64,000 bases of DNA, taken from NCBI GenBank assembly GCA_035525015.1, contig DATLFC010000074.1, positions 3,277-67,276 on the forward strand. Reading direction: 5' to 3'. Shown here piece by piece: positions 22,136-52,564 of this stretch. How positions within the stretch are numbered: the first letter of the stretch is position 1; every line of letters starts with the position of its first letter. A program made the position numbers and the translations under genes. Under the pieces are notes generated by a model that was given only the letters and a program-made list of their open reading frames with translations, did not search any database and was not told the origin of the DNA. The stretch comes from Thermoanaerobaculia bacterium. GTDB lineage: Bacteria > Acidobacteriota > Thermoanaerobaculia > Gp7-AA8.

Positions 22136-23482
22136 TCAGCCGGCCGTGAAGTTCCAGCCGCGGATTCGCACCGTGGGAGCCATCGTTCCGCCGAAAGCGT
22201 TGTACCAGGTGCCGATGGCGCGCCGCTCACGAGTCAGACCATCGACCTGTGCGAACGCCTCGACGATCGACTGCGTCCAGCGGAGATTCGGGAGGCGGGC
22301 AGTCACTCTCCCGTCGCGGATGAGGAATGTCCCGTCGCGCGTCGTTCCCGTCATCAGCGCGCTTTTCGGCTCGAGGAGCCCGTTCACGTAATTGAAGCGA
22401 GTGACCCAGATGCCGCGCTCGGTCGAGCGGATGAGCTCCTCACGCGTGGCACCCCCCGGGTCGACGGTCAGATGAAACGCTGCGCCATGCTCGGGTGACC
22501 CGAGATGCCAGGCGTTGCCGGTGGCGGGGATTCCGAGTCGGTCCGACCACGCTTTGTCGACCACCGGCGTCCGGATGACGCCGCGCTCGATCAGCGGAAT
22601 GCGCCGCTTCGGAATCCCCTCGAGGTCGAACGGGAAAGGCATGAACGCCGGATCGGCGGCGTCATCGGCGATGGTCAGCGACTCCGACAGCTTGCGGATG
22701 CCGAGATTTCCGACGAAGAACGAGGAGCCGTCTTCGTAAGACTGGCCACAGAACGTGATCATGTTCATCCAGTCGAGCACTTCCGCGATCGCGGCCGGCT
22801 CGAGAATCACGTCATACCGCCCCGGCTGGAATGCCTCCTGCGAGCCTGAGAGCATCGTCGCCTTCCCGGAGGCCTCTTCCCCCAGCTCCTCGATCCGGAT
22901 GGCCGCGGCGCTGCGGGCGCAGCGGCTGGCGTATCCCGATGTGTTGCCGTGCAGGGCGATGACCGTCGCGTCGGCCAGCGTCGCGCGGCAGAAACGACGG
23001 ACACCGCTCGTGTTGCCACAGGCGACGGCGACGGCGGCGGTGCTGTACGAGCCGGCGAACCGGATCGAAGACCCGGCGCCGCGATCGAACATCGCCCGCA
23101 GCTCGCGCGCTTTGCCGGCCGGCGGCAGCGCAGCCGTGGTCTCGTCGAACGTCGGCAGATCGGGTGCGGCCTCCGTGCCGCCGTAAAGCCCCTGGAAGCG
23201 TGGAAGGGGCCGAGCGTGCCTGGCCGCCTCTCTCGCCAGTGCCGCCGTGCGGCCGATCTCGTCATCATCGAAGGACGTCGTCGACGCCACTCCCATCGCT
23301 CCGTTCACTACGACCCGCAGCGACAGCTCCGCGGCGATCTCGGACATGTTCTGATGAACGTTCGAGTCGGCGAAGCGGCTGATGTTCCGGTCGGTGGCGA
23401 TGACGGCGGCATCGGCCTCGTCGGCCTCCGCCGCGCCGAGGGCGCGCTGCAGGATCTCGAGCGCCCTCGACTCGCTCAGCAT
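22136..23482 (-). CDS. pmbA: TldE/PmbA-family protein (non-catalytic partner of TldD)
   Basis: TldD/PmbA fold without HExxxH. Start MLSESRALEILQ overlaps the tldD stop (TGATG). Confidence 0.8.
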   Translation of the reverse strand: MLSESRALEILQRALGAAEADEADAAVIATDRNISRFADSNVHQNMSEIAAELSLRVVVNGAMGVASTTSFDDDEIGRTAALAREAARHARPLPRFQGLYGGTEAAPDLPTFDETTAALPPAGKARELRAMFDRGAGSSIRFAGSYSTAAVAVACGNTSGVRRFCRATLADATVIALHGNTSGYASRCARSAAAIRIEELGEEASGKATMLSGSQEAFQPGRYDVILEPAAIAEVLDWMNMITFCGQSYEDGSSFFVGNLGIRKLSESLTIADDAADPAFMPFPFDLEGIPKRRIPLIERGVIRTPVVDKAWSDRLGIPATGNAWHLGSPEHGAAFHLTVDPGGATREELIRSTERGIWVTRFNYVNGLLEPKSALMTGTTRDGTFLIRDGRVTARLPNLRWTQSIVEAFAQVDGLTRERRAIGTWYNAFGGTMAPTVRIRGWNFTAG

Positions 23483-24945
23483 CACGCCATTTCTACTCCG
23501 CGAAACCGCGCCGCCGGTGCGCCGTGCGCCACGCGCATCGTCTGCATGGGGTCGCCCTTGCCACAGTTCGGAAGTCCCCATACCTGCCAGCTGGCGGCAT
23601 CGGCGACGGCGTCGCAGGCCCGCCAGAAGTCGGGGGTCGTGCCGGTGTAAACCGGATTCTTCAGGAGTCTGCCGATGCGGCCGTTCTCGATCTCCCAGGC
23701 GATCTCACAGCCGAACTGAAAGTTGAGCCGGACATCGTCGATCGACCACGACCTGTTCGTGTCGATGAGGATGCCGCGAGGCGTGTCGGCGATGATGTCG
23801 GCCAGCGGCGTCGCTCCAGGCTCGAGATTGATGTTCGTCATCCGGATGATCGGGATTCTGGCCGCGCTCTCGGCGCGCACCGTCCCGTTGGAGCGCCGTC
23901 CGATGACCGGCGCGGTGTCGCGGCCGGTGAGATAGGCGACGAAGATCCCGTTCTCCACCAGATGAAAGCGCTGCGCCGGGACTCCGTCGTCATCGAAGGC
24001 AAACGAGCCGATCGCTCCCGGCACGGTGGCGTCGGCGACGATGTTCACCAGGTCCGAGCCGTAGCGGAAGGTTCCGAGCATGGGCGGCTGCAGAAACGAC
24101 CCGCCGGCAAGCGAGATCTCCAGCCCCATGGCCCGGTCGAGCTCGGTTGGATGCCCGCACGATTCATGGACCTGCAGCGCCAGCTGTGACGATCCGATGA
24201 TCAGGTCGCACCGTCCCGCCGGCGCTTTCGGCGCCTCGAGCAGCGCCAGCACCTCATCGCGGATCTGCAGCCCTTTGGCGGGGAGGTCGAGGCCTTCGAT
24301 GAACTCCCACCCCGCCGCCTGGTAGTCGCCGCCGAATGGATTCGGATAGGTGCGGCGCTGGAAATCGCCGTTCGCGATCGCCACGGCGTCGATGCCCCCG
24401 CCCATCTGCGTCGTGGTCTGCTCGAGAAAGCTGCCCGCGGTCGATGCGAAAGCTTTTTCCTGCCGGTAGCAGGAGATCTCGCCCGAGACCTGGTGAATGC
24501 GGCGGTCGCCTCGCATCGGCTCGGTCGCCTCGAGCAGGCGGTCGATCTTTCTGTCGAGCGGGATCGACCAGGGGTCGATGGCAAAGGAAGACGACCATGA
24601 ACCGACGTGCGGCTCGATCTCGCTCAGCGTCACCTTCGCCGTCGAGGCGATGTTGCTGGCGGCCGCAACGTCGAGGGCGCGCCGGGCTGTCGCCCGCAGC
24701 GACTCCTCCGATGTGTCGGCGCTGGCGGCGAATCCCCAGCCATCGCCCACGAGCACGCGCACTCCGACCGCCCGGTCGACCGTCGAGGCCAGGTGATCGA
24801 TCTCGCCGTTGCGGACCTTGATGTGCTGCTGCAGCGTTCGCGTATACCGTACGTCCGCGTAGCGGAGCGAGCGCGCAGGCAGCGATGAGAGAACCTCGGC
24901 GAGCTGGTCTCGCCCCGGAGTCATGCGGTGCGGAATTATAGACAA
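23482..24945 (-). CDS. tldD: TldD metalloprotease
   Basis: TldD/PmbA family with the zinc-binding HESCGH motif. Confidence 0.85.
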   Translation of the reverse strand: MSIIPHRMTPGRDQLAEVLSSLPARSLRYADVRYTRTLQQHIKVRNGEIDHLASTVDRAVGVRVLVGDGWGFAASADTSEESLRATARRALDVAAASNIASTAKVTLSEIEPHVGSWSSSFAIDPWSIPLDRKIDRLLEATEPMRGDRRIHQVSGEISCYRQEKAFASTAGSFLEQTTTQMGGGIDAVAIANGDFQRRTYPNPFGGDYQAAGWEFIEGLDLPAKGLQIRDEVLALLEAPKAPAGRCDLIIGSSQLALQVHESCGHPTELDRAMGLEISLAGGSFLQPPMLGTFRYGSDLVNIVADATVPGAIGSFAFDDDGVPAQRFHLVENGIFVAYLTGRDTAPVIGRRSNGTVRAESAARIPIIRMTNINLEPGATPLADIIADTPRGILIDTNRSWSIDDVRLNFQFGCEIAWEIENGRIGRLLKNPVYTGTTPDFWRACDAVADAASWQVWGLPNCGKGDPMQTMRVAHGAPAARFRGVEMA

Positions 24946-26918: not shown

Positions 26919-27995
26919 TCACTTTTCACTGCGCACGTAACGTCCCCCCGGCAGAGCCCGCACCCATCCGCCGATCTCCAGCTGCAGGAGTGATTCGGCG
27001 ACGCCGCCCGCGCTGCGCCTGAGCTGCGCGGCGATCGCATCGATGTGGATCGCCTCGCTGCGCGTCAGCACCGACAGCACCTCGCGCAGCGGCTCTGGCG
27101 GCTCCTCCGGCTCCCGCCGCCCGGCCCGGAATTCACCCGGCAGCTCTTCCAGCACGTCGTCGATGTCGTGCACCAGCTTGGCGCCGTACTGGATCAGCCG
27201 ATGGGTACCCTCCGATCCCGGCGTGAAAATCGAGCCGGGGACGGCGAATACCTCCCGGCCCTGTTCGGCGGCCATCCGGGCGGTGATGAGCGAGCCGCTC
27301 CGCCCCGTCGCCTCCACGATGATCGTTCCGAGGCAGAGCCCGGAGATGACACGGTTCCGGATGGGAAAGTTCTCCGGCAGGGGAGGGGTCCCGGGAGCGA
27401 ACTCGGAGAGCACCAGCTGCTCGACCTCGAGGCGGCGCAGCAGCCTTGCGTTGGCACGCGGGTAGGCGCGGTCGATGCCGGTGCCGAGGACGGCGATGGT
27501 ATGGCCGCCGGCATCGAGAGCGGCGTGATGCGCCGCAGCATCGACACCGAGTGCGAGGCCGGAAACGACGGTCAAGCCGGCGTCGGCGAGCTGCCGGGCC
27601 AGCGAACGGGCGGCGTTGATGCCGTACGGCGATGCCCTTCGGGATCCGACGACGGCAATGCATGGGCTGCCCAGCAGTGCCGCGTCGCCGCGGAAATGGA
27701 GAGCCAGAGGCGGATCGATGATCTCGCGCAGCAGAGCCGGATAGGTCGCATCCTCGAGCGTGATCGTCGACCCCCGCAGCGCGAGGATCTGGTCGGGCGA
27801 GGCGATGGTTAACGGATTCTTTACCACCGTCGCCTGATCCGGCGTTACGCTCAGCAGCGCCGCGAGAAATTGCGGCGAGGACGCGGCAACGTCCTGGAGA
27901 GAGGCGAAATGTTCGCGCAGGAGTCTGCTTCGGCTCGGTGTCAGAAAAGGGACGAGCGAATAAGCGATCAAACGATCGCGATTCTCATGTTGCAT
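26919..27995 (-). CDS. dprA: DNA-processing protein DprA (Smf)
   Basis: DprA Rossmann-fold motifs (VVGSRRASPYG, VSGLALGVDAAAH, GSLITA). Confidence 0.9.
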   Translation of the reverse strand: MQHENRDRLIAYSLVPFLTPSRSRLLREHFASLQDVAASSPQFLAALLSVTPDQATVVKNPLTIASPDQILALRGSTITLEDATYPALLREIIDPPLALHFRGDAALLGSPCIAVVGSRRASPYGINAARSLARQLADAGLTVVSGLALGVDAAAHHAALDAGGHTIAVLGTGIDRAYPRANARLLRRLEVEQLVLSEFAPGTPPLPENFPIRNRVISGLCLGTIIVEATGRSGSLITARMAAEQGREVFAVPGSIFTPGSEGTHRLIQYGAKLVHDIDDVLEELPGEFRAGRREPEEPPEPLREVLSVLTRSEAIHIDAIAAQLRRSAGGVAESLLQLEIGGWVRALPGGRYVRSEK

Positions 27996-28066
27996 GGGGT
28001 TACGGAAGACGAAACGCGGCGCAACGGCGGAGGCCGGTCAGGTGGGCGCGGTCGAGTATAATCGCC

Positions 28067-28072
28067 CGGCTT
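28067..28072 (+). promoter_or_regulatory. Candidate sigma-70 -10 hexamer TATAAT upstream of the lipoprotein operon
   Basis: A perfect TATAAT lies 68 nt upstream of the ATG at 28140. The -35 element is weak. Confidence 0.3.
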
Positions 28073-28139
28073 TGCCTCGCCAAGCCGCTCGTGCCGAGGA
28101 GCGGTGGTTTCCAACTCCCGAGCCCCAGGAGACCAATCG

Positions 28140-28670
28140 ATGACTGCACGCTCTCTGGCACTGACCCTCCTGCTGGCCGTCGGAAGCGGAGGGTGCGCGA
28201 GCAGCAGCGACCCGGCCACCCTGCAGGAGAGATTCGGCGTCCGGATGGCGAAGATGAATCTCTGGCGCGAAGCGATGTTCCGTTTCCAGCGCGCCGTGGA
28301 GATGAATCCGGAAAACGCCATGGCCCACAACAATCTGGCCGTGGCGCTGGAGGCGAACGGCGATTTCGATGGGGCGGGGGAGGCATACCGCGAGGCGATG
28401 CGGCTCGACCGCTCCAACGAGTACATCCAGAAGAACTACAGCCGTTTCGTCGAGTTCACGACGCGCGAACGGCGCCGGCAGCAGGAACGCCGTCCGGCGA
28501 CCCGCACCGCGGCGTCGACGCCCGCAACGTCCAGTGTGGCGGAGCAGCCGGCGGAGCCGGCAGACGCCGAGCCGGTCGAAGTCGCGCCGGGCGATGCCGG
28601 GCCCGAACCGGCGCCGTCCGAACAACCGCCCCCTCCGGCGCCACCGAATCCCCCGGGAGGTTCCTCATGA
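28140..28670 (+). CDS. TPR-repeat lipoprotein with Pro/Ala/Glu-rich C-terminal tail
   Basis: Lipobox LLLAVGSGGC. TPR-like helices (AMAHNNLAVALEANGDFDGAGEAYREAM). A low-complexity PEPAP tail. Confidence 0.6.
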   Translation: MTARSLALTLLLAVGSGGCASSSDPATLQERFGVRMAKMNLWREAMFRFQRAVEMNPENAMAHNNLAVALEANGDFDGAGEAYREAMRLDRSNEYIQKNYSRFVEFTTRERRRQQERRPATRTAASTPATSSVAEQPAEPADAEPVEVAPGDAGPEPAPSEQPPPPAPPNPPGGSS

Positions 28671-29359
28671 AGCGTTTCGCCGTCGTCGCCGCTCTCGCTC
28701 TCGCCTCATGGCCGGCCGCTGCCGGCGTGCTGGAGGTGAAGCTGAAGCTCCCGGTCAAACCGAAGCTGCAGATCGAGGGCGACGAGCGGATCGCGATCGC
28801 GCCGTTCATCATCGCGAGCGACGGGGAGCGGCGGAACGACCGCGCCGCGCGGGTCGATCTCCAGGCCGAGTTCCACCGCTATCTCCGGAAGCAGCTCAGC
28901 AAGAGTACGAAGCTGCGCGTCGTGGATGTCCCGGCCACACGCCTTCCGGGTGTCGATCTTCAGTCGCTCGAGGCCGCTATCGACTACTGGAGGAGCCTCG
29001 GCCTCGAAACCGGCGCCGACTACATCGTGACGGGGTCCGTGGACTTCGACATCAACGACAAGTCGGGATACCGGACCGAAGAATTCGTCTCGCCGGCTGA
29101 CGGACGGACGTTCTACCGGCAGGTGCTCGTCGAGTCGACCGGCTTCATCTTCGACATCGATCTCGTCGTGTTCGACGCCGACACGGGCGAGAAGGTCGTG
29201 GAGGAGAGCTTCCGCGACTTCAAGGAGTTCGACCAGCGGCATTACGACGAGATCCTCGGGCTCTTCGAAAATCTCCGCGCCCTGGAGAGTCAGCTGGTCG
29301 GGATCTTCGTGCCGCAGGAGACGTCGGCCAGCCGTTACGTATTCAGCAAGAGTCGGTGA
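28667..29359 (+). CDS. Periplasmic LpoB/CsgG-like protein
   Basis: Signal peptide. IAIAPFI...GADYIVTGSV resembles the LpoB/CsgG-type fold signature. ATGA overlap with the upstream lipoprotein gene. Confidence 0.45.
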   Translation: MKRFAVVAALALASWPAAAGVLEVKLKLPVKPKLQIEGDERIAIAPFIIASDGERRNDRAARVDLQAEFHRYLRKQLSKSTKLRVVDVPATRLPGVDLQSLEAAIDYWRSLGLETGADYIVTGSVDFDINDKSGYRTEEFVSPADGRTFYRQVLVESTGFIFDIDLVVFDADTGEKVVEESFRDFKEFDQRHYDEILGLFENLRALESQLVGIFVPQETSASRYVFSKSR

Positions 29360-29378
29360 AGCTGCCGGTGGAGGCTCC

Positions 29379-32321
29379 GTGAAGCGTTCGATCGCGCTGT
29401 GCATTCTTTTTTTCTTCGCCGCGCCGGCGGCATTCCCGTTCGGTCAGAACAAGATCGTCTACGACAAGTTCAACTGGAGCGTCTACCAGTCGACGCACTT
29501 CGACATCTACTTCTATGACGAAGAGCGGGAGGCGTTGCAGCGCGTGGTCGACAGCGCGGAGAGCGCCTACATGGAGCTCTCGCAGAAATTCAACTACCAG
29601 ATATCGAAGAAGATCCCGCTGATCTTCTATCACACGCATTCGGCGTTCGAGCAGACGAACGTCATGCTGAACTTCATCCCCGAGGGTGTGGGGGCGTTCG
29701 CCGAGCCGGCGCGCAACCGGATGGTGCTGCCGATCGACATGAGCGACGACAAGCTGCACCAGCTCATCCTCCATGAGCTGACCCACATCTTCGAATTCGA
29801 GATCTTCTTCCAGGGCAAGCTCGGGAAGACGGTGGCCGCGAGCCCTCCCACGTGGCTCATGGAGGGGCTGGCCTCGTTCATGGCCCAGGACGAAGACTCC
29901 CGCGACCGGATGGTGCTGCGTGACGCCGTGGTCAACGACCGCGTGCCGGCGATCACGCGCAATCCACAGGGCTATTTCGCCTACCGCTTCGGCCATGCCG
30001 TCTTCCGCTACATGCAGGAGAAGTACGGTTGGGAGGGGCTCCGCGATTTCATCTACGAATACCGCAACACGCTCGGCAATACAGTCGACCGGGCCCTGCG
30101 GCGCGCGTTCGAGGTGGAGCCCGACGAATTCGACACGCAGTTCCGGACGTGGCTGCGCAAGCAATACCTCCCGGCGCTCGTCGCCAAGGGGGAGCCGCAG
30201 GAGTACGGCGAGCCGTTCAAGATCGGCGGGGACATCAATAGCAATGACATCGCGCCGGTGCCCTCGCCGTCGGGCGACCTTCTGGCGGCCTTCGTCACCT
30301 ACAAGCAGGACGTCGACGTGGCGCTGTTCAATATCCCCGAGCGGCGCCTGCTGAAGAACCTGACGTCGGGATACACCAGCCGCTACGAATATGCGATTGC
30401 GCAGTCCTTCACCACGGCCCCCGTCATGGGGCGGGACATCGCCTGGTCGCCGGACGGCGACGCGGTCGCGCTGTTCGTCCGCCGCGAGCGCGGACGCGAC
30501 CTGCTCATGATCAATCCGATCACCGGTCAGATCGCCCGCACCGTCTCGATGGACATCGAGCAGCAGCTGGCCCCGTCGTTCTCACCTGACGGAAAGAAGA
30601 TCGCATTCTCCGGCTGGGTGGGCACGCAGCCCGACATCTTCATCTACGACCTCGACACGGGCGCCGTCGTGAACATCACCGACGACCGGTTCTTCGACGG
30701 CGCACCGGTGTTCTCGCCCGACGGCAAGTGGTTGATCTATTCATCCGTGGGCGACACGTACGCGAAGCTCTTCCGGCTGAATCTGGAGAATCCGGCCGAG
30801 CGTTATCAGCTCACCACCGGCCAGTGGAACGACATCGACGCCTGGTTCTCGCCCGACGGCAAGCGCGTCTTCTTCGCTTCCGACAAACAGACCGGCCGCG
30901 CCGCGATCGCGGCCGTGCAGATGTTCGAGGCGGCCGACGCCGCCGCGCGGACGGAGGGAGACCCGCCGGCTGCCGATCCGATGAACTTCGCCGCCTACAA
31001 CATCTACTCGCTCGATCTGGAGAGCGGCGACCTGCTCCAGTACACCGACGTCATCGGAGGATGCTTCACCCCGGTCGTCTTCACCGGCGAGAACAACCGC
31101 GAGCGGCTGGTCTTCTCCTCCTACTACAAGGGGCAATGGCGGCTGTTCTCGACGCCGACCGACAAACCGCTTCGGGCGGCGGAAAAGACCGTCCTCGCCT
31201 CCGCGCCGGTCGATGCCGAGGCTCGGAGCACGTTTCGCCCGGCTTCCGAGTACTTCATCGACGAGGAGAAGATCGCCGCCGCCGGCGGATTCCGGCTTTT
31301 CCTCGACGACATCGACGTGAATGCCGGCGTCACCTCCGATCAGATCCCGGTGTCGCGCTCGACGATCTATATGAGCGACATGCTCGGGAACCGGCGCTTC
31401 ATCGCCTCGCTCGACTCGGTGTCGTCCTTCTCGAACTTCGACTTTCTCTATCTCGATCTCCGCCGGCGGATGAACTGGGGCCTGCGCATCTTCGACAATC
31501 GCTCATTCTTCACCGCCCCCGACTTCGAGCGGGGGCAGATCGAGCGTATCCGGCAGACATACCGGGAGACCGGCGCGCTCGGCCTGGTCAGCTACCCCTT
31601 CACCCGCTACCACAGGGTCGACGCCGGGGCCGGCTACATCAGCCGATCGCTGGCCTTCCCCTTCCAGGTAGAGGGAGGGATTGCGTTCTTCGAGCGCCGT
31701 GATGAATTCCCCCTCGTCAGCTCCACATTCAGCGGCGACACGACGACCTACAAGTTCTTCGGGCCGATCTCCGGCCGCCGGTACAACCTCAGCGCCTCCT
31801 ACGCTCCCGACATCGAGGCGGGAGGAACGCTCAGCAACGACTACACGCTGGATTGGCGCGAGTACTACCAGCTCAGCTCCCGCACGCTCCTGGCGGCGCG
31901 GCTGTTCGTCGGGTACTCGAGCGGCAACTTTCCGAACTTCTACTACTTCGGCGGCCTGAACACGCTGCGCGGGTATCCCTTCCGCTCCATCGTCGGCAAC
32001 GAGGCCACATTCGCCAATTTCGAGTTCCGCTTCCCCCTGATCGACATCCTCGCCACGCCGTTCATCGTTCTGCAGCAGGTTCGCGGCGTCCTCTTTTTCG
32101 ATCTCGGCGCGGCGCGTTTCGCCGGCCTCGATCTCGAGACCGGCCAGCCCTTCCAGTTCATGGAGGGCGGACGGCTCAAGCATGGACGAGCCGCTGTCGG
32201 CTACGGCTTCTCGTTCAACTTCTGGGGCATGGAACTGCACTGGGACTTCGCCAAGCGCTCCGACGGAAAGGATACGGAAGGAAAGTACCGTTCGAGCTTC
32301 TGGATCGGTCAGACGTTCTAG
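29379..32321 (+). CDS. Outer-membrane Omp85-family beta-barrel fused to N-terminal HExxH metalloprotease-like domain and TolB-like PD40 beta-propeller
   Basis: Signal peptide. HELTH zinc motif near aa 130. At least four PD40 repeats (SPDG: IAWSPDGDAV, FSPDGKKIAF, FSPDGKWLIY, FSPDGKRVFF). C-terminal barrel with the Omp85 lid-loop motif NTLRGY and a terminal aromatic (IGQTF-COOH). Confidence 0.75.
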   Translation: MKRSIALCILFFFAAPAAFPFGQNKIVYDKFNWSVYQSTHFDIYFYDEEREALQRVVDSAESAYMELSQKFNYQISKKIPLIFYHTHSAFEQTNVMLNFIPEGVGAFAEPARNRMVLPIDMSDDKLHQLILHELTHIFEFEIFFQGKLGKTVAASPPTWLMEGLASFMAQDEDSRDRMVLRDAVVNDRVPAITRNPQGYFAYRFGHAVFRYMQEKYGWEGLRDFIYEYRNTLGNTVDRALRRAFEVEPDEFDTQFRTWLRKQYLPALVAKGEPQEYGEPFKIGGDINSNDIAPVPSPSGDLLAAFVTYKQDVDVALFNIPERRLLKNLTSGYTSRYEYAIAQSFTTAPVMGRDIAWSPDGDAVALFVRRERGRDLLMINPITGQIARTVSMDIEQQLAPSFSPDGKKIAFSGWVGTQPDIFIYDLDTGAVVNITDDRFFDGAPVFSPDGKWLIYSSVGDTYAKLFRLNLENPAERYQLTTGQWNDIDAWFSPDGKRVFFASDKQTGRAAIAAVQMFEAADAAARTEGDPPAADPMNFAAYNIYSLDLESGDLLQYTDVIGGCFTPVVFTGENNRERLVFSSYYKGQWRLFSTPTDKPLRAAEKTVLASAPVDAEARSTFRPASEYFIDEEKIAAAGGFRLFLDDIDVNAGVTSDQIPVSRSTIYMSDMLGNRRFIASLDSVSSFSNFDFLYLDLRRRMNWGLRIFDNRSFFTAPDFERGQIERIRQTYRETGALGLVSYPFTRYHRVDAGAGYISRSLAFPFQVEGGIAFFERRDEFPLVSSTFSGDTTTYKFFGPISGRRYNLSASYAPDIEAGGTLSNDYTLDWREYYQLSSRTLLAARLFVGYSSGNFPNFYYFGGLNTLRGYPFRSIVGNEATFANFEFRFPLIDILATPFIVLQQVRGVLFFDLGAARFAGLDLETGQPFQFMEGGRLKHGRAAVGYGFSFNFWGMELHWDFAKRSDGKDTEGKYRSSFWIGQTF

Positions 32322-32332
32322 TGTAGTGGCTC

Positions 32333-33382
32333 TCAGGCCGCGCGTGGGTTCTTACGGCGATCGGCGATCGTCTCGCGCAGGAATCGGAGCAGCGCCTTCT
32401 CCTCCATGGAGAGGCCCAGCTTGACCACCGGGCTCCCTTTGCGTGTCTTGCGGAGCGACTCGAACGTCTTCCCTTCCATGTATTCGTCGAGCAGCCGCGG
32501 ACAGATGTAGGAAGACTTGCAGACCGCCGGTGTGTTCCCCAGCTGTTCCGCCGTGGCCGTGATGGCCTTGCGCACGTTGCGCTTTCGTGCGGTCTTCGTC
32601 TCGCCCTGCCCCAGCCGGGCCAGGCTGATCGAGCAGAGCAGCGTCCCCGCCCAGGTGCGGAAGTCCTTGGCCGTGAAATTCTCACCGACGACCGACTGGA
32701 TGTAGTCGTTCACGTGGCGGTCCTTGACGTCGACGAGGCGGTCTCCCGACTCGAACTTGAAGAGCTCGCCGCCGCCCGCATGCTTCAGCCGCGCCACGAG
32801 CCTGGCCACTTCCGCGTCGCGCACGGCCCGGCGGTGCTTTTTCTTCCACTTCCCGACATAGTCGAACAGGAGCTTGTCGCCGCTCACTTCGACATGCCTG
32901 CCGTGCACCGTGGTGAGGCCGTACGTCGACTCCGACTTCGCGCTCTTGTCGTTGCCGACGCGAAAAAACCCCTGATCGATCAGGCGCACGATCGCCGCGA
33001 GGATGGTTTCGCGGCCGAGTGTCTCGTGTTTCAGGTCTTTCCGAACACGCTGCCGGAGGCGCGGAAGCGATTCTCCGAACTCGACGACGCGCCGGAACTT
33101 CTCCTCCTCGCGCTGGCTGCGGAAGCGCCAATGATAGAGATACTGGGTGCGTCCTTTCTTGTCGACGCCCACCGCCTGCAGCGGCGAGGAGTCGCTGCGC
33201 GCAATCCGGACGTTCTTCCAGGCGGGAGGGATCCGGAGCTTCCGGATCTGGGCCAGAGTTTTCTCGCCCGATACGGCCATCCGGTCGGCGCTCCGGTAAG
33301 AAAACCCCCGTTCCTTCGATCCCTCGCGGCGGATGCCGTGAAGATCGAGGTGCCACCGCCGCTTCACCGCTCGAGCGGGCAT
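32333..33382 (-). CDS. DNA topoisomerase IB (poxvirus-type, bacterial TopIB)
   Basis: TopIB core with the catalytic S-K-x-x-Y motif (CKSSYICP) and conserved Arg/Lys/His residues. Confidence 0.85.
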   Translation of the reverse strand: MPARAVKRRWHLDLHGIRREGSKERGFSYRSADRMAVSGEKTLAQIRKLRIPPAWKNVRIARSDSSPLQAVGVDKKGRTQYLYHWRFRSQREEEKFRRVVEFGESLPRLRQRVRKDLKHETLGRETILAAIVRLIDQGFFRVGNDKSAKSESTYGLTTVHGRHVEVSGDKLLFDYVGKWKKKHRRAVRDAEVARLVARLKHAGGGELFKFESGDRLVDVKDRHVNDYIQSVVGENFTAKDFRTWAGTLLCSISLARLGQGETKTARKRNVRKAITATAEQLGNTPAVCKSSYICPRLLDEYMEGKTFESLRKTRKGSPVVKLGLSMEEKALLRFLRETIADRRKNPRAA

Positions 33383-33414: not shown

Positions 33415-35214
33415 TTGGAAAGCAACACAGACGCGCCAGGTCCCGTAACCCGTTCGCAGCAGTTGCTCGTGCTGGCGACGGCGGCGGGCGTCGCCCTTTC
33501 CCGCCTTCCGGCGATGTCGCAGACCCTTTGGGACTGGGACGAGGTGCAGTTCGCCATGGCGGTGGAAGAGTACGACGTTCCGTCGTATCGACCCCATCCT
33601 CCCGGCTTTCCGCTGTTCATTGCTCTGGCGAACATCGCGCGGGCGTTCGCTCCGTCCGACTTTCGAGCTTTGCAGGCAGTCACGGTGTTGGCGGCGGTCT
33701 CACTCTTCCCCCTTCTCTTTTTTCTTTTTCGCGAGCTGCGGTTTCCGTTTGCCACCGCCTGGGGCGGCGCGCTGCTGACGATGTTCGTCCCGAACGTCTG
33801 GTTCTACGGCGGCACCGGATTCAGCGACGTTCCCGCCCTGGCTCTCACGGTTGCGGCGTGCGCGTATCTGTTGCGCGGAGCGCGCGACCGCACTTCCTTT
33901 CTCCTCGGCGCCTTTCTGCTCGGTCTGTCCGCGGCGATGCGCCCGCAGGCGCTCCTCGTCGGAGCCGCTCCGGCGCTGGTGGCTGCCTGGAAGCGGCGGC
34001 ACCGCTGGCGCGACATCGTGCTCGCGATCGCCCTCGGTGCGACCACGATCGCCGCCGCCTACGCCGGGGCGGTGCTCGCTTCGAGCTCCTACGAGGACTA
34101 TGTCCAGACCGCCGCGAAGCTCCGTGAATACCTCCGGAGCGTCGATTCGTTTCTCAGTCCCGAGCGTCCTCCTCTCGGCGTCCTGTTCGAGTTCTTCTTC
34201 TTCCGCACTCTGCCGGGGGAGCCCTACGGGCGTCTGCTCGTCTACGCGGCCGCGGCGGGGCTCCTCGTCACGCTTCTGCGGCGCGAGGGGCGCGTGGTGC
34301 TGTTGCTGCTGATGTTCGTTCCGCTTCAGATATTCGCCTGGCTGATGCTCGATTATCACAGCGTGACGCGCTATGGCGTGATGTTCGCGCCGATGTACGC
34401 CGTGCTGGCGGCGGCAGCCGTCATCGGAGTACTGGCCTGGATTCCGGGTCTGGGGCGTGCCGCGGGGGCGGTCGTCATCGTGCTCTTCGCCGCTTCGTGG
34501 GCGCGCTGGACGTTTCCGGCGCTGACGGAGGTGCGGCGGCATGCGTCGCCTCCCGTGCGCGCTGTGATGTGGCTGAACGAAAACGTCCCATCGTCTTCGA
34601 TGGTGTACGTCCACGCCAGCTTCACATCGTTCGCGCGGTATTTCATGGGTGGCCGCCCGCACGAGAAGGTCGAGTCTCCGGCCGACCTCGGATCGGTGCC
34701 GGCCGCGGACGATGCGCTGCTCGTGAGCGAGACTTCTTTGCCGCTCCTGAGCGCGCAGCGTTTCGTCCGCGGGCGCGGCGTCCTGTTCGAGATCGCCCGG
34801 CGGCGCTATTTCGAAGTGACGGTGATCCGCGCCGGCGCGTGGGGGGAGTTCGGCGACGGCTGGCACGCAATGGAGTGGCATGGCGAGGCTGTCTGGCTCT
34901 GGATGGGGGGGCGCTCGGAGATGTCGCTCCCTCCCGCCGCCGGATCGATGAAGCTGTCGCTGCGCCTCGAGCCGGCGCTCGAGCACGGTCCGCCCATCAT
35001 CGAGGCACAGCTGAACGGCCAACTCGTGGAGCGCTTCGCGCTGACGGAAACGATGGAGAAGAGCTGGGTCGTGCCGGCGCGCTCGGACGGCTGGAACGAG
35101 CTCGTGCTGACGAGCGATCGGTTCGTGAACCCGCTGCAGGAAGGCATCTCCGCCGACGGCCGCGACCTGTCGCTGCGGTTGCTCGGCTACGACTGGGTGC
35201 CGGCGAAGCGATGA
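33415..35214 (+). CDS. GT-C fold polytopic membrane glycosyltransferase (PMT/ArnT/DUF2723-like), paralog 1
   Basis: Loop-1 acidic motif WDWDEVQF and HPPGFPLF resemble the PMT/ArnT DE and KPPL motifs. 10-12 transmembrane helices plus a soluble C-terminal domain. Confidence 0.6.
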   Translation: MESNTDAPGPVTRSQQLLVLATAAGVALSRLPAMSQTLWDWDEVQFAMAVEEYDVPSYRPHPPGFPLFIALANIARAFAPSDFRALQAVTVLAAVSLFPLLFFLFRELRFPFATAWGGALLTMFVPNVWFYGGTGFSDVPALALTVAACAYLLRGARDRTSFLLGAFLLGLSAAMRPQALLVGAAPALVAAWKRRHRWRDIVLAIALGATTIAAAYAGAVLASSSYEDYVQTAAKLREYLRSVDSFLSPERPPLGVLFEFFFFRTLPGEPYGRLLVYAAAAGLLVTLLRREGRVVLLLLMFVPLQIFAWLMLDYHSVTRYGVMFAPMYAVLAAAAVIGVLAWIPGLGRAAGAVVIVLFAASWARWTFPALTEVRRHASPPVRAVMWLNENVPSSSMVYVHASFTSFARYFMGGRPHEKVESPADLGSVPAADDALLVSETSLPLLSAQRFVRGRGVLFEIARRRYFEVTVIRAGAWGEFGDGWHAMEWHGEAVWLWMGGRSEMSLPPAAGSMKLSLRLEPALEHGPPIIEAQLNGQLVERFALTETMEKSWVVPARSDGWNELVLTSDRFVNPLQEGISADGRDLSLRLLGYDWVPAKR

Positions 35215-36647
35215 TCGATCTGACGACTGCGCCGCCGAGCCTGAGCCGGCGGGAGATGCTTCTGGCCGGAATGGCGACCGTGGTCGTCGCGGTCACACGT
35301 GTGCTGGCCCTGGCCCGAACCCCGTGGGACTGGGACGAGATGCTGTTTCTTCTCGGGCTGCGCGACTACGACGTTGCGCTCCACCATCCCCATCCACCCG
35401 GGTTCCCGCTCTTCTTGCTCGCCGCGCGTCTCTTCATGGAGCTCGGCCTGGAGCCGTTCCGGGCGCTGCAGGCGGTGAACCTCGTCGCAGCCGTGGCCAT
35501 CGTTCCGGCCGTGCTGTTCTTCTGCCGGGAGCTCCGGCTCCCGTTTCCGGTCTCCCTGGCGGCCGCGCTGCTGTTCTCGTTCTTTCCGAACGTCTGGTTC
35601 TTCGGCGGCACCGGATTCAGCGATGTCGCGGCGATCGTGCTGACGTTGTTCGCTTGTGCGCTGCTATTGCGCGGAGGACGATCCCCCGCGGCGTTCCTCT
35701 CCGGCGCGGTGGTGATCGCCGTCGCCGCCGGCTTCCGGCCGCAGAACCTGCTGGTGGGTGCGTTACCGGCGCTCGCCGGCGCCTGGTCGCAACTGCGGCA
35801 GCGTCGCTTCGGCACCGTGGCCGGAGCGGCAGGCATCGTTCTCGTGATCACGGCTGGCAGCTACGCCGGAGCCGTGATGGCGACCGGGGAATGGTCGCGA
35901 TACCGTGACTCGCTGCTCGCGCATCAGCGGTATCTCGTGGAGGTCGACTCGTTCCTGAGCGAGATCCGCCCGTCGCTGCTCCAGGTCTCGGACGACTTCT
36001 TCGTCCGCCCGTTTCGTTTTCCCGCGGCGAACGCGGCGCTGAGCCTGCTGGCCACCCTTTCCGCGGTGACGGCGCTGGTCCGCCGGCGGATGGCGATCGT
36101 TCTGGCCATCGCGACATTCGGGCCGTTCTGGCTGCTGGCGTGGTTCACGCTCGATTTCCACAGCGCCAGCCGCTTCTCGATCGGGTACATGCCGCTGCTG
36201 GCCATCCTCGCAGCGGACGGCATCGCCACGGTGGCCGCATGGAGTAGGAGAAGCCCGCGGGTGCAGGGCGTTGCGACGATCGCCCTGGCGGGACTGCTCG
36301 CGGCCGGCATGGCCGTCTGGACGTGGAACGGGATCCGCCGCGTCCGCGAGGAGCCGTCGCCGCCGCTGCAGGCGATCGCGTTCGTCAGGCAGACGTTCGC
36401 CGCCGAGACGATCGTCTACGTTCCCAAACGGCTCCGCCCTCATGCCGAGTACTACCTCGACGATTTCCGGCTCGTGCACATCGAGGACGAGCCGACTGCA
36501 GCCGCGTTGCGCAGCAGCGGCGCGGTCTATCTCCTCGAAGGTGACGGCGGCGTCGCCGGCGGCAGGACGTTCGCGTGGCCGGAGGAGCCGCTCTGGAACA
36601 TCGCACGCCGCCGCTACTTCAAGGTCTCCGTGATTCCGATCGGGTGA
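35211..36647 (+). CDS. GT-C fold polytopic membrane glycosyltransferase, paralog 2 (tandem duplicate)
   Basis: Same motifs (WDWDEMLF, HPPGFPLF). Start overlaps the upstream stop (ATGA). C-terminal domain ends with the same RRRYFKVSVI sequence as paralog 1. Confidence 0.6.
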   Translation: MIDLTTAPPSLSRREMLLAGMATVVVAVTRVLALARTPWDWDEMLFLLGLRDYDVALHHPHPPGFPLFLLAARLFMELGLEPFRALQAVNLVAAVAIVPAVLFFCRELRLPFPVSLAAALLFSFFPNVWFFGGTGFSDVAAIVLTLFACALLLRGGRSPAAFLSGAVVIAVAAGFRPQNLLVGALPALAGAWSQLRQRRFGTVAGAAGIVLVITAGSYAGAVMATGEWSRYRDSLLAHQRYLVEVDSFLSEIRPSLLQVSDDFFVRPFRFPAANAALSLLATLSAVTALVRRRMAIVLAIATFGPFWLLAWFTLDFHSASRFSIGYMPLLAILAADGIATVAAWSRRSPRVQGVATIALAGLLAAGMAVWTWNGIRRVREEPSPPLQAIAFVRQTFAAETIVYVPKRLRPHAEYYLDDFRLVHIEDEPTAAALRSSGAVYLLEGDGGVAGGRTFAWPEEPLWNIARRRYFKVSVIPIG

Positions 36648-38582
36648 TCACGGCTTGAACTGGATCATCTGCGCGATCCAGGTCTTGACCCGTTTGCCGT
36701 CTTTCATCGGCGGCGTGTAACGGGCGGCGCGGAAGGCGCGGATGGCCGAGTCGTTGAAGCCGAAGCGCGGTTCTCCCCGGAGGATCTTCACCTCGACCAC
36801 CTCGCCGGTTTCCGAGACCAGGATGCTGGCCATGACCGTCGCTTCCATCTTCTGTCTCGCCGCAATCGGCGGATAGGACGGGCGAGGTTCCCTGATCGCC
36901 GTCGGCACCTCGTCGAGCTCACCCATGTCGACGACGTCACCCTCCCGGATCACCGGCGCGGGCGGAGGCTGCGGCGGAGGCTGCGGCGGAGGCTGGCTCT
37001 GAGGCTGCGTTTGGGTCAAAACGGGAGGAGGAGCGGCCGTGGCGGGATTCGCCAGCGGCTCCAGAGCAGCGATCTGCGTTTCCGACGTCCAGGGCCGCTG
37101 CGCCACGGTGGTCGTGATCTCTTCCTCGCGCTGCGGCATGGCGGCCGCCGGTTCCTGTTCCGCCTGGACCACGGCGGGCTGCGAAGCCACCGTCGAGGTC
37201 AGCGGTGCGTTGCGCGCCTGCTCGCGCCGGAGCTGTTGCGTGTATTCGGCCTGAAGTTTCAGCAGCTCTTCCTGAAGGCGGCGCTTCACCGCTGCGTCGA
37301 ACAGTCTCTTGCGCTCCGCTTCATCGATCTTCGGTTGCGCGGCAGGGGCGGAAGGAGCTTCCGGCTCCTCGACCGTCGGGGAAGCGACGATCGGCTCCGG
37401 GGCGACGACCGGTTGCGGCTGGGGCGCCGGCGGCGTCATCGCGCCGGCGACGTGAACCACGGGAACAGCCGGTGCCGGCCGTTTCGCGCCCAGCGTGAGC
37501 CAGGCCCCGACGCCTGCGGCAGCGAGGACCGTCGCTGCCGCGATACCCACCGCCAGTCTGCTCCTCCCTGCCGCCGGCTTCTCGGCAGCCACCGGCTGCG
37601 CTTCCGCCTGCAGATAGGGAGCGAGGCTGATCTTCGATTCCCTCTCCCGCTCGCCCGCTTCCACCTCCATCTCTTTTTTCAGGAGCGTGCTGAGATAGAA
37701 GGCGAGATTGAAACTCGTGGCGGCATAGCGGCCGCTCGAAGAGAGAGCGGCGAGCGCGGTGTGCACGTCGGATGGACTTGCGTATCGCGCCGCGGGATCG
37801 ATGTTGAGCGACTTCTCCAGAATGGAGCGGATGTCATCGGGAAGCGGATCGCCGGCCATGCTCCTGGCCGCGCGCACGGCGTGCGTAAACGCGCTCGCGC
37901 GCGTGGCGTCGGGCGGCTCATGACCCGTGACCAGAAGGTAAAGGAGTGCGCCGAGCGAGTAGACCTCGCTCGACCTGGAAGCCTGGCCTGAATGCTGCGT
38001 CTCGGGAGCGAAGTAGCGGCCGATCTCGACGGCAACCTTCTCGTCGCGCAGCGACGCGGCCAGTCCGCGCCCCAGCTGCTGCCCTGCCACGCGAATCTCC
38101 CCATCCTCTGTGATCCAGACGAACTGCGGAACGAGTCCTCCGTGCAGCAGACGCTCGGCGCCGAGTCGCAGCTCCGCCGTCGCCGCCAGCGAGAGCGCGA
38201 CACGTTCCACGACGGCGAGGGTCTGATCGAGAGGGATGGGATGCGGCGCGGACCCGGTACCGCGCGCACGGTCGACGATGTAGCGCAGGGAACGACCCGA
38301 TTCATATTCGTGCGCGATCGTGACCACGCCGTTGATGACCGTGATCTGCTGCTCTTTGACGAACGTCGGACCGGTGAGCGACTCCGCGATCTGCTCCGCC
38401 GACTGCGCGGCCGCAAGGAGTGCCTCGCTTCCGCCGCTGAACCGGCGCAGGGCCACCACGCGCCCCGGCGCGCCGTCCTCGATCCTCACCGCCCGGAAGA
38501 GATCGCCGAGTGCATCCGACTCCAGCTTTTTCAGCAGAACGTAAGGACCGAACGTCTCGTAAGGCCTTGCCTTTGCGGCCAT
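36648..38582 (-). CDS. Membrane-spanning pseudokinase (Ser/Thr kinase-like) fused to TonB C-terminal domain
   Basis: Kinase fold has the APE region retained, HRD replaced by HGG, no DFG and a degenerate Gly loop. One transmembrane helix, then a Pro-rich spacer (PPPQPPPQPPPAP). TonB_C motifs at the C-terminus (ARYTPPMKDGKRVKTWIAQMIQFK). Confidence 0.7.
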   Translation of the reverse strand: MAAKARPYETFGPYVLLKKLESDALGDLFRAVRIEDGAPGRVVALRRFSGGSEALLAAAQSAEQIAESLTGPTFVKEQQITVINGVVTIAHEYESGRSLRYIVDRARGTGSAPHPIPLDQTLAVVERVALSLAATAELRLGAERLLHGGLVPQFVWITEDGEIRVAGQQLGRGLAASLRDEKVAVEIGRYFAPETQHSGQASRSSEVYSLGALLYLLVTGHEPPDATRASAFTHAVRAARSMAGDPLPDDIRSILEKSLNIDPAARYASPSDVHTALAALSSSGRYAATSFNLAFYLSTLLKKEMEVEAGERERESKISLAPYLQAEAQPVAAEKPAAGRSRLAVGIAAATVLAAAGVGAWLTLGAKRPAPAVPVVHVAGAMTPPAPQPQPVVAPEPIVASPTVEEPEAPSAPAAQPKIDEAERKRLFDAAVKRRLQEELLKLQAEYTQQLRREQARNAPLTSTVASQPAVVQAEQEPAAAMPQREEEITTTVAQRPWTSETQIAALEPLANPATAAPPPVLTQTQPQSQPPPQPPPQPPPAPVIREGDVVDMGELDEVPTAIREPRPSYPPIAARQKMEATVMASILVSETGEVVEVKILRGEPRFGFNDSAIRAFRAARYTPPMKDGKRVKTWIAQMIQFKP

Positions 38583-38676
38583 CACTACCTCGCGATGCAG
38601 AGTTATTGTTATGGACAAAGGTAAGGATAGCACCAGACCGGCCAGGAGTCAGGCGGGCTGGGGCATGGAAGTCTGC

Positions 38677-52562: not shown

Positions 52563-52564
52563 GG

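What the first reader, a model, noticed from the sequence alone, without database searches (positions are those of the whole stretch)
28140..32321. Omp85/BamA-type barrel fused to HExxH metalloprotease and TolB-like propeller, in operon with TPR lipoprotein and LpoB/CsgG-like periplasmic protein
The 980-aa protein has a signal peptide, a zinc-protease-like HELTH motif, at least four PD40 (SPDG) blades, and a C-terminal beta-barrel. The barrel carries the Omp85 lid-loop motif (NTLRGY) and the terminal F of outer-membrane beta-barrel proteins. Omp85 barrels normally carry POTRA domains (BamA, TamA, TpsB) or, in type Vd PlpD, a patatin passenger. A protease plus propeller in the POTRA position would make it a surface-tethered or self-exported enzyme, possibly a new type-V-like arrangement. 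The three genes are linked by an ATGA overlap and a 19-nt gap. This suggests an outer-membrane complex built from a lipoprotein, a periplasmic adaptor and the barrel enzyme.
Basis: partly seen in the sequence, partly recalled or inferred. Interest (0 to 1): 0.75.

Follow-up and report, generated by a model that had tools for sequence, protein, structure and literature searches.

The report
Omp85 barrel fused to zinc peptidase
This is a real outer-membrane protein that joins a zinc peptidase and a TolB-like propeller to a BamA-type barrel, but the architecture was catalogued in 2014 as the still uncharacterised "WD40-like Omp85" family and most likely faces the periplasm rather than being exported.

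Summary
Three co-directional genes (28140-32321) encode a TPR lipoprotein, a 230-aa periplasmic protein with a PelC/LpoB/CsgG/TolB-N-type fold, and a 980-aa protein. The 980-aa protein has a signal peptide, a gluzincin peptidase (HELTH, E162, Y202), a TolB-like propeller and a 16-strand Omp85 barrel with the L6 LRGY motif. The fusion is not an assembly artefact: it is full-length in hundreds of independent assemblies.

The novelty claim fails. Heinz & Lithgow (2014) defined a "WD40-like Omp85" subfamily with the same barrel, TolB propeller and aminopeptidase-like domain. NCBI already names this exact protein BamA/TamA family. No functional study was found.

The type-V self-export reading is not supported, and its precedent PlpD has since been shown to keep its enzyme domain in the periplasm.

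Added here:
- The catalytic residues are invariant in 108/108 divergent members, and the peptidase is the best-conserved domain.
- The TPR and PelC-like partner genes are conserved across Acidobacteriota and candidate division B38, with weaker support for the gene-2 partner in Poribacteria.
- Members from three other phyla (FCB group) carry a BamB-like lipoprotein gene instead.

Most likely it is an outer-membrane-anchored, periplasm-facing metallopeptidase complex for envelope protein processing or quality control. It is a new member of a known kind, of moderate interest.

The parts
28140..28670 (+). Gene 1: 176-aa TPR lipoprotein. It has a signal peptide and a lipobox Cys19 (nt 28194-28196), 2-3 TPR repeats at about aa 27-110, and a Pro/Ala/Glu-rich tail at about aa 115-176.
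   Evidence: TPR_16, TPR_2 and TPR_11 score above their cut-offs. The best NCBIfam hit, NlpI at 32 bits, is far below its cut-off. The lipobox Cys is conserved in nearly all related loci. The PDB search returns only generic consensus TPR proteins.
28667..29359 (+). Gene 2: 230-aa secreted (periplasmic) protein with a PelC/LpoB/CsgG/FlgT/LptE/TolB-N-type alpha/beta fold. It has a signal peptide of about aa 1-20 with an AxA-type site, no lipobox Cys here, and an invariant mature N-terminus GV.EVKLKLP.
29379..32321 (+). Gene 3: 980-aa outer-membrane fusion protein, a member of the WD40-like Omp85 subfamily.
   Evidence: It is identical to the NCBI protein named 'BamA/TamA family outer membrane protein [Thermoanaerobaculia bacterium]'.
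29379..29435 (+). Signal peptide of gene 3 (about aa 1-19), immediately followed by the family-wide FG(Q/K)NK motif.
   Evidence: Read from the sequence. Relatives show AxA followed by (Y)FGxNK. G22 and N24 are >=95% conserved. No signal-peptide predictor was available.
29436..30188 (+). Gluzincin-type zinc metallopeptidase domain (aa 20-270). It contains HELTH 132-136 (nt 29772-29786), the third zinc-ligand candidate E162 (nt 29862-29864) and the catalytic Tyr candidate Y202 (nt 29982-29984).
   Evidence: PF13485 scores above its gathering score. H132, E133, H136, E162, G163, Y202 and R114 are present in 108/108 divergent members. The motif HExxH...W..EG is present in 118/118 further members. 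A family profile hits the M1 cold-active aminopeptidase 3cia and the M9 collagenase ColG, with E162 and Y202 aligned to the NEG Glu and the conserved Tyr. It is the best-conserved domain.
30219..31157 (+). TolB-like PD40 beta-propeller (aa 281-593, about six blades). A 32-aa insertion at about aa 505-538 is absent from the one distant (Poribacteria) homologue aligned.
31158..31298 (+). Poorly conserved, low-confidence linker (aa 594-640). It is too short for a POTRA domain.
   Evidence: pLDDT is below 50 over most of it. Mean identity is 17% with 35% gaps across the family. No PF07244 hit was found.
31299..32321 (+). 16-strand Omp85 beta-barrel (aa 641-980 plus stop). The L6 motif NTLRGY lies at aa 861-866 (nt 31959-31976), and the C-terminal beta-signal ends in F980.

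Best explanation
Gene 3 encodes a member of the already catalogued 'WD40-like' Omp85 subfamily. It is an outer-membrane protein whose 16-strand BamA/TamA-type barrel anchors a catalytically competent gluzincin zinc peptidase and a TolB-like six-bladed propeller on the periplasmic side.

Shown:
- the three domains;
- the intact and invariant HExxH/E/Y catalytic set;
- the Omp85 L6 motif and beta-signal;
- the absence of POTRA;
- the conserved operon with a TPR lipoprotein and a PelC/LpoB-like secreted protein.

Inferred:
- The N-terminal domains stay in the periplasm, as for every Omp85 N-terminal region studied, including PlpD.
- The propeller recruits or gates unfolded polypeptide substrates for the peptidase, as in propeller-gated peptidases such as tricorn, POP and DPP-IV.
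- The TPR lipoprotein and the PelC/LpoB-like protein are accessory subunits (adaptor or scaffold) of one outer-membrane complex.
- The complex processes or degrades envelope proteins. It would be functionally comparable to BepA at BAM, or to TPR-lipoprotein/protease pairs such as NlpI-Prc. That comparison is a functional analogy from general knowledge, not homology.

The substrate is not known.
For: - Architecture and membership.
- Known subfamily.
- Active-site conservation is 108/108 and 118/118, and the peptidase is the best-conserved domain (36.7% mean identity, 1.9% gaps, 15 of the 29 positions that are >=95% conserved).
- Periplasmic orientation:
  - the PlpD enzyme domain is periplasmic;
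  - gene 1 has a conserved lipobox, and gene 2 has a Sec signal and a fold shared by periplasm-facing outer-membrane accessory proteins;
  - the best match for the propeller is periplasmic TolB;
  - in other phyla the linked genes encode a BamB-like lipoprotein or SPOR (peptidoglycan-binding) proteins.
- Operon conservation: every locus with enough upstream DNA among 80 Acidobacteriota/Holophagales/B38 loci, down to 40% identity of gene 3, plus a Poribacteria locus.
Against: - No experiment exists for any family member in the literature searched.
- The AF2 model is only moderate (pLDDT 65, pTM 0.41). Its coordinates and PAE were not available, so the position of the N-terminal domains relative to the barrel was not checked.
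- The 47-aa linker is long enough in principle to thread a barrel.
- Partner genes differ between phyla, so the TPR/PelC-like partners are not universal to the family.
- Similarity of the peptidase to secreted M9 collagenases would equally fit an extracellular role.
- The quality-control role rests on analogy only.
Confidence: 0.55

Rival explanations
1. BAM/TAM-like assembly factor. The Omp85 barrel is the working part, inserting or translocating client proteins. The propeller replaces POTRA/BamB as a docking platform (the 'BamA-BamB fusion' idea of Heinz & Lithgow), and the peptidase is accessory, for example trimming clients.
Against: There is no POTRA domain. The peptidase, not the barrel or propeller, is the most conserved domain, and its catalytic set is invariant. 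The L6 motif is also kept in PlpD-type proteins that are not known insertases, so it may be structural only.
Confidence: 0.15
2. Tol-Pal-like envelope tether or peptidoglycan-linked peptidase. The TolB-like propeller binds a Pal/OmpA-type or peptidoglycan-associated partner. The peptidase cuts peptidoglycan stem peptides or OM-PG tethers during growth or division. Gene 2 stands in for the TolB N-domain and gene 1 for the TPR protein CpoB.
Against: Gene 2 is structurally closer to CT253, PelC and HpaA than to TolB-N. No tolQRA or pal genes are adjacent. TolB TIGR02800 scores 91 bits against a cut-off of 343. The peptidase resembles polypeptide-cleaving M1 and M9 enzymes rather than known peptidoglycan peptidase families.
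Confidence: 0.15
3. Surface-displayed or self-exported protease (type-V-like, the first reader's idea). The barrel translocates the peptidase and propeller to the cell surface.
For: The layout is an N-terminal 'passenger' followed by a C-terminal barrel, with a 47-aa low-complexity linker. The peptidase resembles secreted collagenases and flagellinolysin.
Against: The N-termini of Omp85 barrels are periplasmic, and the only claimed self-exporting Omp85 (PlpD) was shown to keep its enzyme domain in the periplasm. About 590 residues in two stably folded domains would have to cross a barrel whose lumen is occupied by the conserved L6 loop. The partner proteins have periplasmic-type signals and folds.
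Confidence: 0.07
4. Nutritional periplasmic oligopeptidase. A propeller-gated peptidase is simply parked at the outer membrane to trim imported peptides, and the barrel serves as an inert anchor.
For: Precomputed Pfam hits to Tricorn_N, Tricorn_2nd and DPPIV_N propellers. Profile similarity to M1 aminopeptidases. E109, 23 residues before HExxH, is conserved in 102/108 members, which recalls the GxMEN Glu of M1 enzymes. That last point is from memory and was not tested by alignment.
Against: It does not explain the conserved Omp85-specific barrel features. It also does not explain the dedicated lipoprotein/scaffold partners or the BamB-like partners in other phyla.
Confidence: 0.08

Closest known systems
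WD40-like Omp85 subfamily (Heinz & Lithgow 2014, Front Microbiol 5:370, PMC4104836)
   Same: Same three parts: PF07676 repeats plus PF01103, with Phyre hits to a BamA/TamA barrel, a TolB propeller and an M1/M9-type 'aminopeptidase' domain in about 95 listed proteins. There is no POTRA. It is spread over several phyla.
   Different: Nothing architectural differs. This copy comes from Thermoanaerobaculia (Acidobacteriota). The paper's main text does not mention that phylum: a word search for 'Acidobacteria' found 0 occurrences. The paper's supplementary accession lists were not checked for it. The passages read from that paper did not analyse catalytic-residue conservation or gene neighbourhood.
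BamA / TamA (Omp85 insertases)
   Same: 16-strand barrel, L6 (V/I)RG(F/Y) motif and C-terminal aromatic beta-signal. These are the best structural matches of the barrel.
   Different: There are no POTRA domains. The TIGR03303 BamA model scores 22.9 bits against a cut-off of 297. The N-terminal region is an enzyme plus a propeller.
PlpD / patatin-like Omp85 (formerly 'type Vd')
   Same: An Omp85 barrel carrying an N-terminal hydrolase domain.
   Different: PlpD has a POTRA domain and a patatin lipase. PlpD is now shown to be a periplasm-facing homodimer. Here the enzyme is a zinc peptidase with a propeller and no POTRA.
TolB (Tol-Pal system)
   Different: The TolB N-terminal domain is absent from gene 3. 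There is no tol-pal gene context. The score is below the TolB equivalog cut-off.
M1 aminopeptidases and M9 collagenases (gluzincins, clan MA)
   Same: HExxH, a downstream Glu in a W..EG/NEG context, and a conserved Tyr. Peptidase_MA_2 scores above its gathering score.
   Different: It does not reach the cut-offs for the M1 or M9 Pfam models (M9 scores 18-22 bits against 26). The domain is much smaller and lacks the flanking domains of those enzymes.
BepA-BAM, NlpI-Prc and LbcA-CtpA (functional analogues, from general knowledge)
   Same: A periplasmic protease working at the outer membrane together with TPR modules or lipoproteins to remove envelope proteins.
   Different: No homology: BepA is an M48 peptidase with its own TPR domain, and Prc and CtpA are serine proteases. 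Here the protease is covalently fused to an Omp85 barrel.
PelB-PelC, LptD-LptE and CsgG-type outer-membrane assemblies
   Same: The gene 2 fold matches PelC, LptE, CsgG and LpoB. Those are accessory proteins that ring or plug outer-membrane barrels, and PelB also carries TPRs.
   Different: Similarity is at fold level only (10-16% identity). Gene 2 is not a lipoprotein in this lineage. Oligomeric state is unknown.

Membership tests
Omp85 superfamily (PF01103) | C-terminal 16-strand beta-barrel matching the Omp85 HMM | tested here: met
Omp85 superfamily (PF01103) | Conserved (V/I)RG(F/Y) motif in loop 6 between strands 11 and 12 | tested here: met
   L863-R864-G865-Y866 lie in the loop at 848-874. 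R864 is present in 106/108 members and G865 in 98/108.
Omp85 superfamily (PF01103) | C-terminal beta-signal ending in an aromatic residue | tested here: met
   The protein ends ...FWIGQTF. The last residue is F, Y or W in 104/108 members.
BamA / TamA / TpsB (NCBI name 'BamA/TamA family') | [quoted passage not shown] | tested here: not met
   No PF07244 or PF08479 hit at E<=1. Neither appears in the precomputed Pfam lists of 240 homologues. The linker is only 47 aa.
BamA / TamA / TpsB (NCBI name 'BamA/TamA family') | Score above the BamA equivalog model TIGR03303 | tested here: not met
   22.9 bits against a cut-off of 297.
WD40-like Omp85 subfamily (Heinz & Lithgow 2014) | PD40/WD40-like TolB-type propeller N-terminal to PF01103, no POTRA, aminopeptidase-like N-domain | tested here: met
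   compared with Tables S2 and S3 of the paper.
Gluzincin metallopeptidases (clan MA(E); Pfam Peptidase_MA_2) | HExxH plus a third zinc-ligand Glu about 18-30 residues downstream | tested here: met
   H132, E133, H136 and E162 are invariant in 108/108 members. E162 aligns with the NEG/EG Glu of the M1 aminopeptidase 3cia and of ColG. PF13485 scores 34.6-38.8 bits against 32.4.
Gluzincin metallopeptidases (clan MA(E); Pfam Peptidase_MA_2) | Transition-state-stabilising Tyr downstream of the zinc site | tested here: met
   Y202 is present in 108/108 members. It aligns with the conserved Tyr of 3cia and of ColG in the profile alignment. Its catalytic role is inferred from those families.
Gluzincin metallopeptidases (clan MA(E); Pfam Peptidase_MA_2) | Zinc-dependent peptidase activity | not testable with these tools
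   Requires enzyme assays.
M1 aminopeptidases | GxMEN exopeptidase motif and PF01433 match | tested here: inconclusive
   PF01433 was hit by only 1 of 27 family N-domains, at E 0.007. A GAFAE109P segment 23 residues before HExxH (E109 in 102/108 members) recalls GxMEN, but it was not aligned to it.
TolB (TIGR02800) | N-terminal alpha/beta domain plus six-bladed propeller scoring above the equivalog cut-off, in a tol-pal operon | tested here: not met
   91 bits against 343, covering the propeller part only. There are no tol or pal neighbours.
Type V (Vd-like) secretion | Translocation of the N-terminal passenger to the cell surface by its own barrel | not testable with these tools
   Sequence and model summaries cannot show topology. 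The precedent PlpD was re-assigned to the periplasm.
PelC / LpoB / CsgG / LptE-type outer-membrane accessory proteins (gene 2) | Shared alpha/beta sandwich fold | tested here: met
PelC / LpoB / CsgG / LptE-type outer-membrane accessory proteins (gene 2) | Lipoprotein anchor (lipobox Cys) and HMM membership of one of these families | tested here: not met
   Thermoanaerobaculia copies have no Cys after the signal peptide. FlgT_M scores 21.5 bits against 31.2 and LptE 18.8 against 23. The B38 and Poribacteria counterparts do have a lipobox.
Bacterial TPR lipoproteins (gene 1) | Signal peptide with lipobox Cys, plus TPR repeats | tested here: met
   The sequence reads LAVGSGGC19. The Cys is conserved in nearly all of about 70 loci. 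TPR models score above their cut-offs.

The most novel reading that the evidence does not exclude
The Omp85 barrel is not just an anchor. It would use its BamA-like lateral seam to capture beta-signal-bearing, mis-assembled outer-membrane proteins and feed them through the propeller to its own fused zinc peptidase. That would make it a self-contained 'reverse BAM' disposal machine. The TPR lipoprotein plus a PelC-like ring (Acidobacteriota, B38; probably Poribacteria) or a BamB-like lipoprotein (the Calditrichota, Bacteroidota and Ignavibacteria members examined) would act as interchangeable adaptors. This would be a new functional class for the Omp85 superfamily.
Probability: 0.15. Interest if true: 0.75.

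Novelty: new member of a known kind. Interest (0 to 1): 0.38.

Why it matters
Omp85 proteins are central to outer-membrane biogenesis, and only the POTRA-bearing families and PlpD have been studied. The WD40-like/peptidase subfamily is large. There are 1,081 clusters at 50% identity with E<=1e-30. Members occur in Acidobacteriota, Poribacteria, Gemmatimonadota, Bacteroidota, Ignavibacteria, Calditrichota, Cloacimonadota and others. It has been flagged as an 'intriguing target', yet nobody knows what it does.

This analysis sharpens the question in three ways:
- The peptidase is the most constrained part, and its catalytic set is universally intact.
- Lineage-specific partner genes were identified: a TPR lipoprotein plus a PelC-like protein, a BamB-like lipoprotein plus a PEGA protein, or SPOR proteins.
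- Together these point to a periplasmic envelope-protein protease complex that can be tested in cultivable members.

For this particular window it is an ordinary member of that family, not a new secretion type.

Tried and rejected
- The afdb50 fold library, wanted to list the same architecture with UniProt names, was not available.
- The genome-contig scan used two very specific peptide patterns and returned only Acidobacteriota and B38 loci. Other phyla had to be reached through a profile search and contig look-ups instead.
- The promoter/terminator scan of 27800-32600 found no more sites than in shuffled sequence.
- The full-length Pfam scan did not list PF01103. Scanning the isolated barrel did.
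- The PDB sequence search with the TPR part of gene 1 gave only generic consensus TPR proteins, with no specific family.
- Literature searches found no functional study of the family. The two 2025 Bacteroidota BAM structure papers do not mention it.
- Mis-assembly or frameshift fusion was considered and rejected, because the fused ORF is conserved full-length in hundreds of assemblies.
- I considered that gene 2 plus the propeller might be a split TolB. I rejected this as a membership claim, because gene 2 is closer to PelC and CT253 than to TolB-N.
- The downstream 202-275-aa proteins of FCB-phyla loci are not homologues of gene 2.

Full report
**What is in the sequence.** Three co-directional genes fill 28140-32321 on the + strand. 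They lie between a divergent dprA (26919-27995, - strand) and a convergent bacterial topoisomerase IB gene (32333-33382, - strand).
- Gene 1 runs from ATG 28140 to the stop at 28668-28670.
- Gene 2 starts at ATG 28667, giving an ATGA overlap preceded by GGGAGG, and ends at 29359.
- A 19-nt spacer containing GGTGGAGG precedes the GTG start of gene 3 at 29379. Gene 3 ends at 32321 and encodes 980 aa.
HELTH lies at aa 132-136 and NTLRGY at aa 861-866. There are four SPDG motifs plus one PSPSGD, and the protein ends in F.

**Domain assignment of gene 3.**
- Pfam gives Peptidase_MA_2 (aa 60-260; 34.6 bits against a gathering score of 32.4) and PD40 (65 bits).
- NCBIfam gives only sub-threshold TolB, Omp85_fam and BamA hits.
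- The isolated barrel (aa 636-980) hits PF01103 at 32.4 bits against a cut-off of 24, covering profile positions 34-325 of 325.
- A profile of 16 divergent barrels hits Fusobacterium BamA over the whole barrel at E 1.5e-14.
- An AF2 model built from 45 homologues has moderate quality (pLDDT 65, pTM 0.41). Its secondary structure is clear: an alpha/beta N-domain, a propeller at 281-593, a disordered 47-aa linker, and 16 strands at 641-976 with NTLRGY in the loop between strands 11 and 12.
- Foldseek matches BamA barrels at E~1e-12 and TolB at 1e-11.
- No POTRA domain is detected, and there is no room for one.

**The peptidase looks active.** I aligned 107 full-length representatives that share at most 50% identity with each other and 27-50% with the query.
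- H132, E133, H136, E162, G163, Y202 and R114 are present in 108/108 sequences.
- The pattern HExxH...W..EG is present in 118/118 further members from other phyla. This includes Gemmatimonadota proteins where Pfam did not flag a peptidase.
- A profile of the N-domain hits the M1 cold-active aminopeptidase 3cia and the M9 collagenase ColG. E162 aligns with the zinc-ligand Glu of those enzymes and Y202 with their conserved Tyr.
- The peptidase is the best-conserved domain in the family: 36.7% mean identity to the query and 1.9% gaps. The propeller has 30.1% and the barrel 31.4%. The peptidase holds 15 of the 29 positions that are >=95% conserved.

**The partner genes.**
- Gene 1 is a small TPR lipoprotein. 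Its lipobox ends in C19, and this Cys is conserved in nearly all related loci. It has a low-complexity Pro/Ala/Glu tail. Beyond generic TPR similarity it cannot be assigned to a family.
- Gene 2 has a Sec-type signal peptide and no lipobox in this lineage. Its 120 listed homologues, of 1,337 found, are 75-100% identical.
- In candidate division B38 and in Poribacteria the counterpart of gene 2 does carry a lipobox Cys.

**Conservation of the operon.**
- I examined 80 loci from Thermoanaerobaculia, Holophagales, other Acidobacteriota and candidate division B38, in which gene 3 is 40-83% identical to the query. Every locus with enough upstream DNA has the same TPR, gene 2, fusion order.
- A Poribacteria locus, with a fusion protein 28% identical over its full length, has the same arrangement. 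Its TPR protein scores 71 bits. Its gene 2 counterpart gives hhalign E 4.7e-5 at 68% probability.
- Other phyla differ. In Calditrichota, Bacteroidota and Ignavibacteria the fusion gene is followed directly by a PQQ-propeller lipoprotein and then a PEGA-domain protein. The best model for the propeller lipoprotein is BamB, at 110-163 bits against a cut-off of 285.
- In Gemmatimonadota the fusion gene sits between rsfS and SPOR-domain proteins and smc.

**What is already known.**
- Heinz & Lithgow 2014 (PMC4104836) divided the Omp85/TpsB superfamily into ten subfamilies, one of which is 'WD40-like'.
- Their Table S2 lists PF07676 repeats plus PF01103 for that cluster.
- Their Table S3 lists, for about 95 members, a BamA/TamA barrel hit, a TolB propeller hit and a 'best aminopeptidase hit' (1z5h, 4kxd, 3qnf or the collagenase 4ar1).
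- A 2024 paper summarises the subfamily as having 'divergent WD40 and peptidase domains'.
- Hanson et al. 2024 state that the metalloprotease and WD40-like subfamilies 'have not been well characterized'.
- NCBI already names this very protein 'BamA/TamA family outer membrane protein [Thermoanaerobaculia bacterium]'.
- The architecture is therefore known, and its function is unknown. I found no functional study.

**Topology and mechanism.**
- The type-V-like reading rests on PlpD as a self-exporting Omp85. That has been overturned: the PlpD enzyme domain stays in the periplasm.
- All characterised Omp85 N-terminal regions are periplasmic.
- The partner proteins here have lipoprotein or Sec signals and folds typical of periplasm-facing outer-membrane accessory proteins.
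- The closest relative of the propeller is periplasmic TolB.
- Linked genes in other phyla encode BamB-like lipoproteins or peptidoglycan-binding SPOR proteins.
- I therefore favour an outer-membrane-anchored, periplasm-facing zinc peptidase. Its propeller recruits or gates unfolded substrates. Gene 1 and gene 2 are accessory subunits.
- Its job would be processing or removal of envelope proteins, by analogy with BepA at BAM or TPR-lipoprotein/protease pairs. That last step is inference. The orientation could not be read from the model because coordinates and PAE were not available.

**Rivals kept open.**
- A BAM/TAM-like assembly role, with the propeller as a BamB-like platform.
- A Tol-Pal-like or peptidoglycan-linked role.
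- A nutritional oligopeptidase.
- Surface display, which I consider least likely.

**Verdict.** This is a new member of a known but experimentally unexplored kind. What this analysis adds is the universal conservation of the catalytic set and the lineage-specific partner modules. Interest is moderate.

Noticed in passing
window 36648-38633 (- strand): A 661-aa protein joins an N-terminal protein-kinase-like domain (PF07714, 33 bits), a long Pro/Gln-rich linker and a C-terminal TonB_C domain (64 bits). This is an unusual kinase-TonB fusion, and a 643-aa TonB_C-containing protein sits at the same position in the related locus L001.
   Followed up: partly
window 32333-33382 (- strand): Bacterial topoisomerase IB (Top1B_N_bact plus Topoisom_I). 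It is convergent with gene 3, with only 11 nt between the two stop codons.
   Followed up: partly
window 33415-35214 and about 35214-36647 (+ strand): Two tandem paralogous polytopic membrane proteins share a PHPPGFPLF motif and have no Pfam hit at 1e-3. They look like DUF2723/TMEM260-type glycosyltransferases. A TMEM260_N protein also lies two genes upstream, on the opposite strand, of the fusion gene in an Eisenbacteria locus (L086).
   Followed up: no
window 44715-57419 (- strand): A run of five large (566-962 aa) ORFs on one strand. Two have YfhO C-terminal hits and the rest have no Pfam match. The region also shows strongly positive AT skew.
   Followed up: no
window 22136-24945 (- strand): An adjacent TldD/PmbA metallopeptidase pair.
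   Followed up: no
L082 7925-9073, L084 7868-9067, L088 5342-6496: In Calditrichota, Bacteroidota and Ignavibacteria MAGs the fusion gene is immediately followed by a lipoprotein whose best model is BamB (110-163 bits, below cut-off), then a PEGA protein. A 2025 paper states it is unclear whether any Bacteroidota have BamB.
   Followed up: partly
L083 8464-11325, L087 7206-8681: Gemmatimonadota family members lie in a conserved rsfS, fusion, SPOR-domain protein, smc context. This hints at a link to cell division or peptidoglycan in that phylum.
   Followed up: no
L081 about 5301-5888, L085 4278-4976, versus window 28667-29359: Counterparts of gene 2 are lipoproteins (lipobox Cys) in candidate division B38 and Poribacteria. 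In Thermoanaerobaculia the Cys is lost and an AxA signal-peptidase-I site is present, followed by the invariant mature N-terminus GV.EVKLKLP.
   Followed up: partly
window about 30891-30992 (gene 3 aa 505-538): A 32-aa Ala/Pro-rich insertion in a propeller blade has low model confidence and is absent from the Poribacteria homologue.
   Followed up: no
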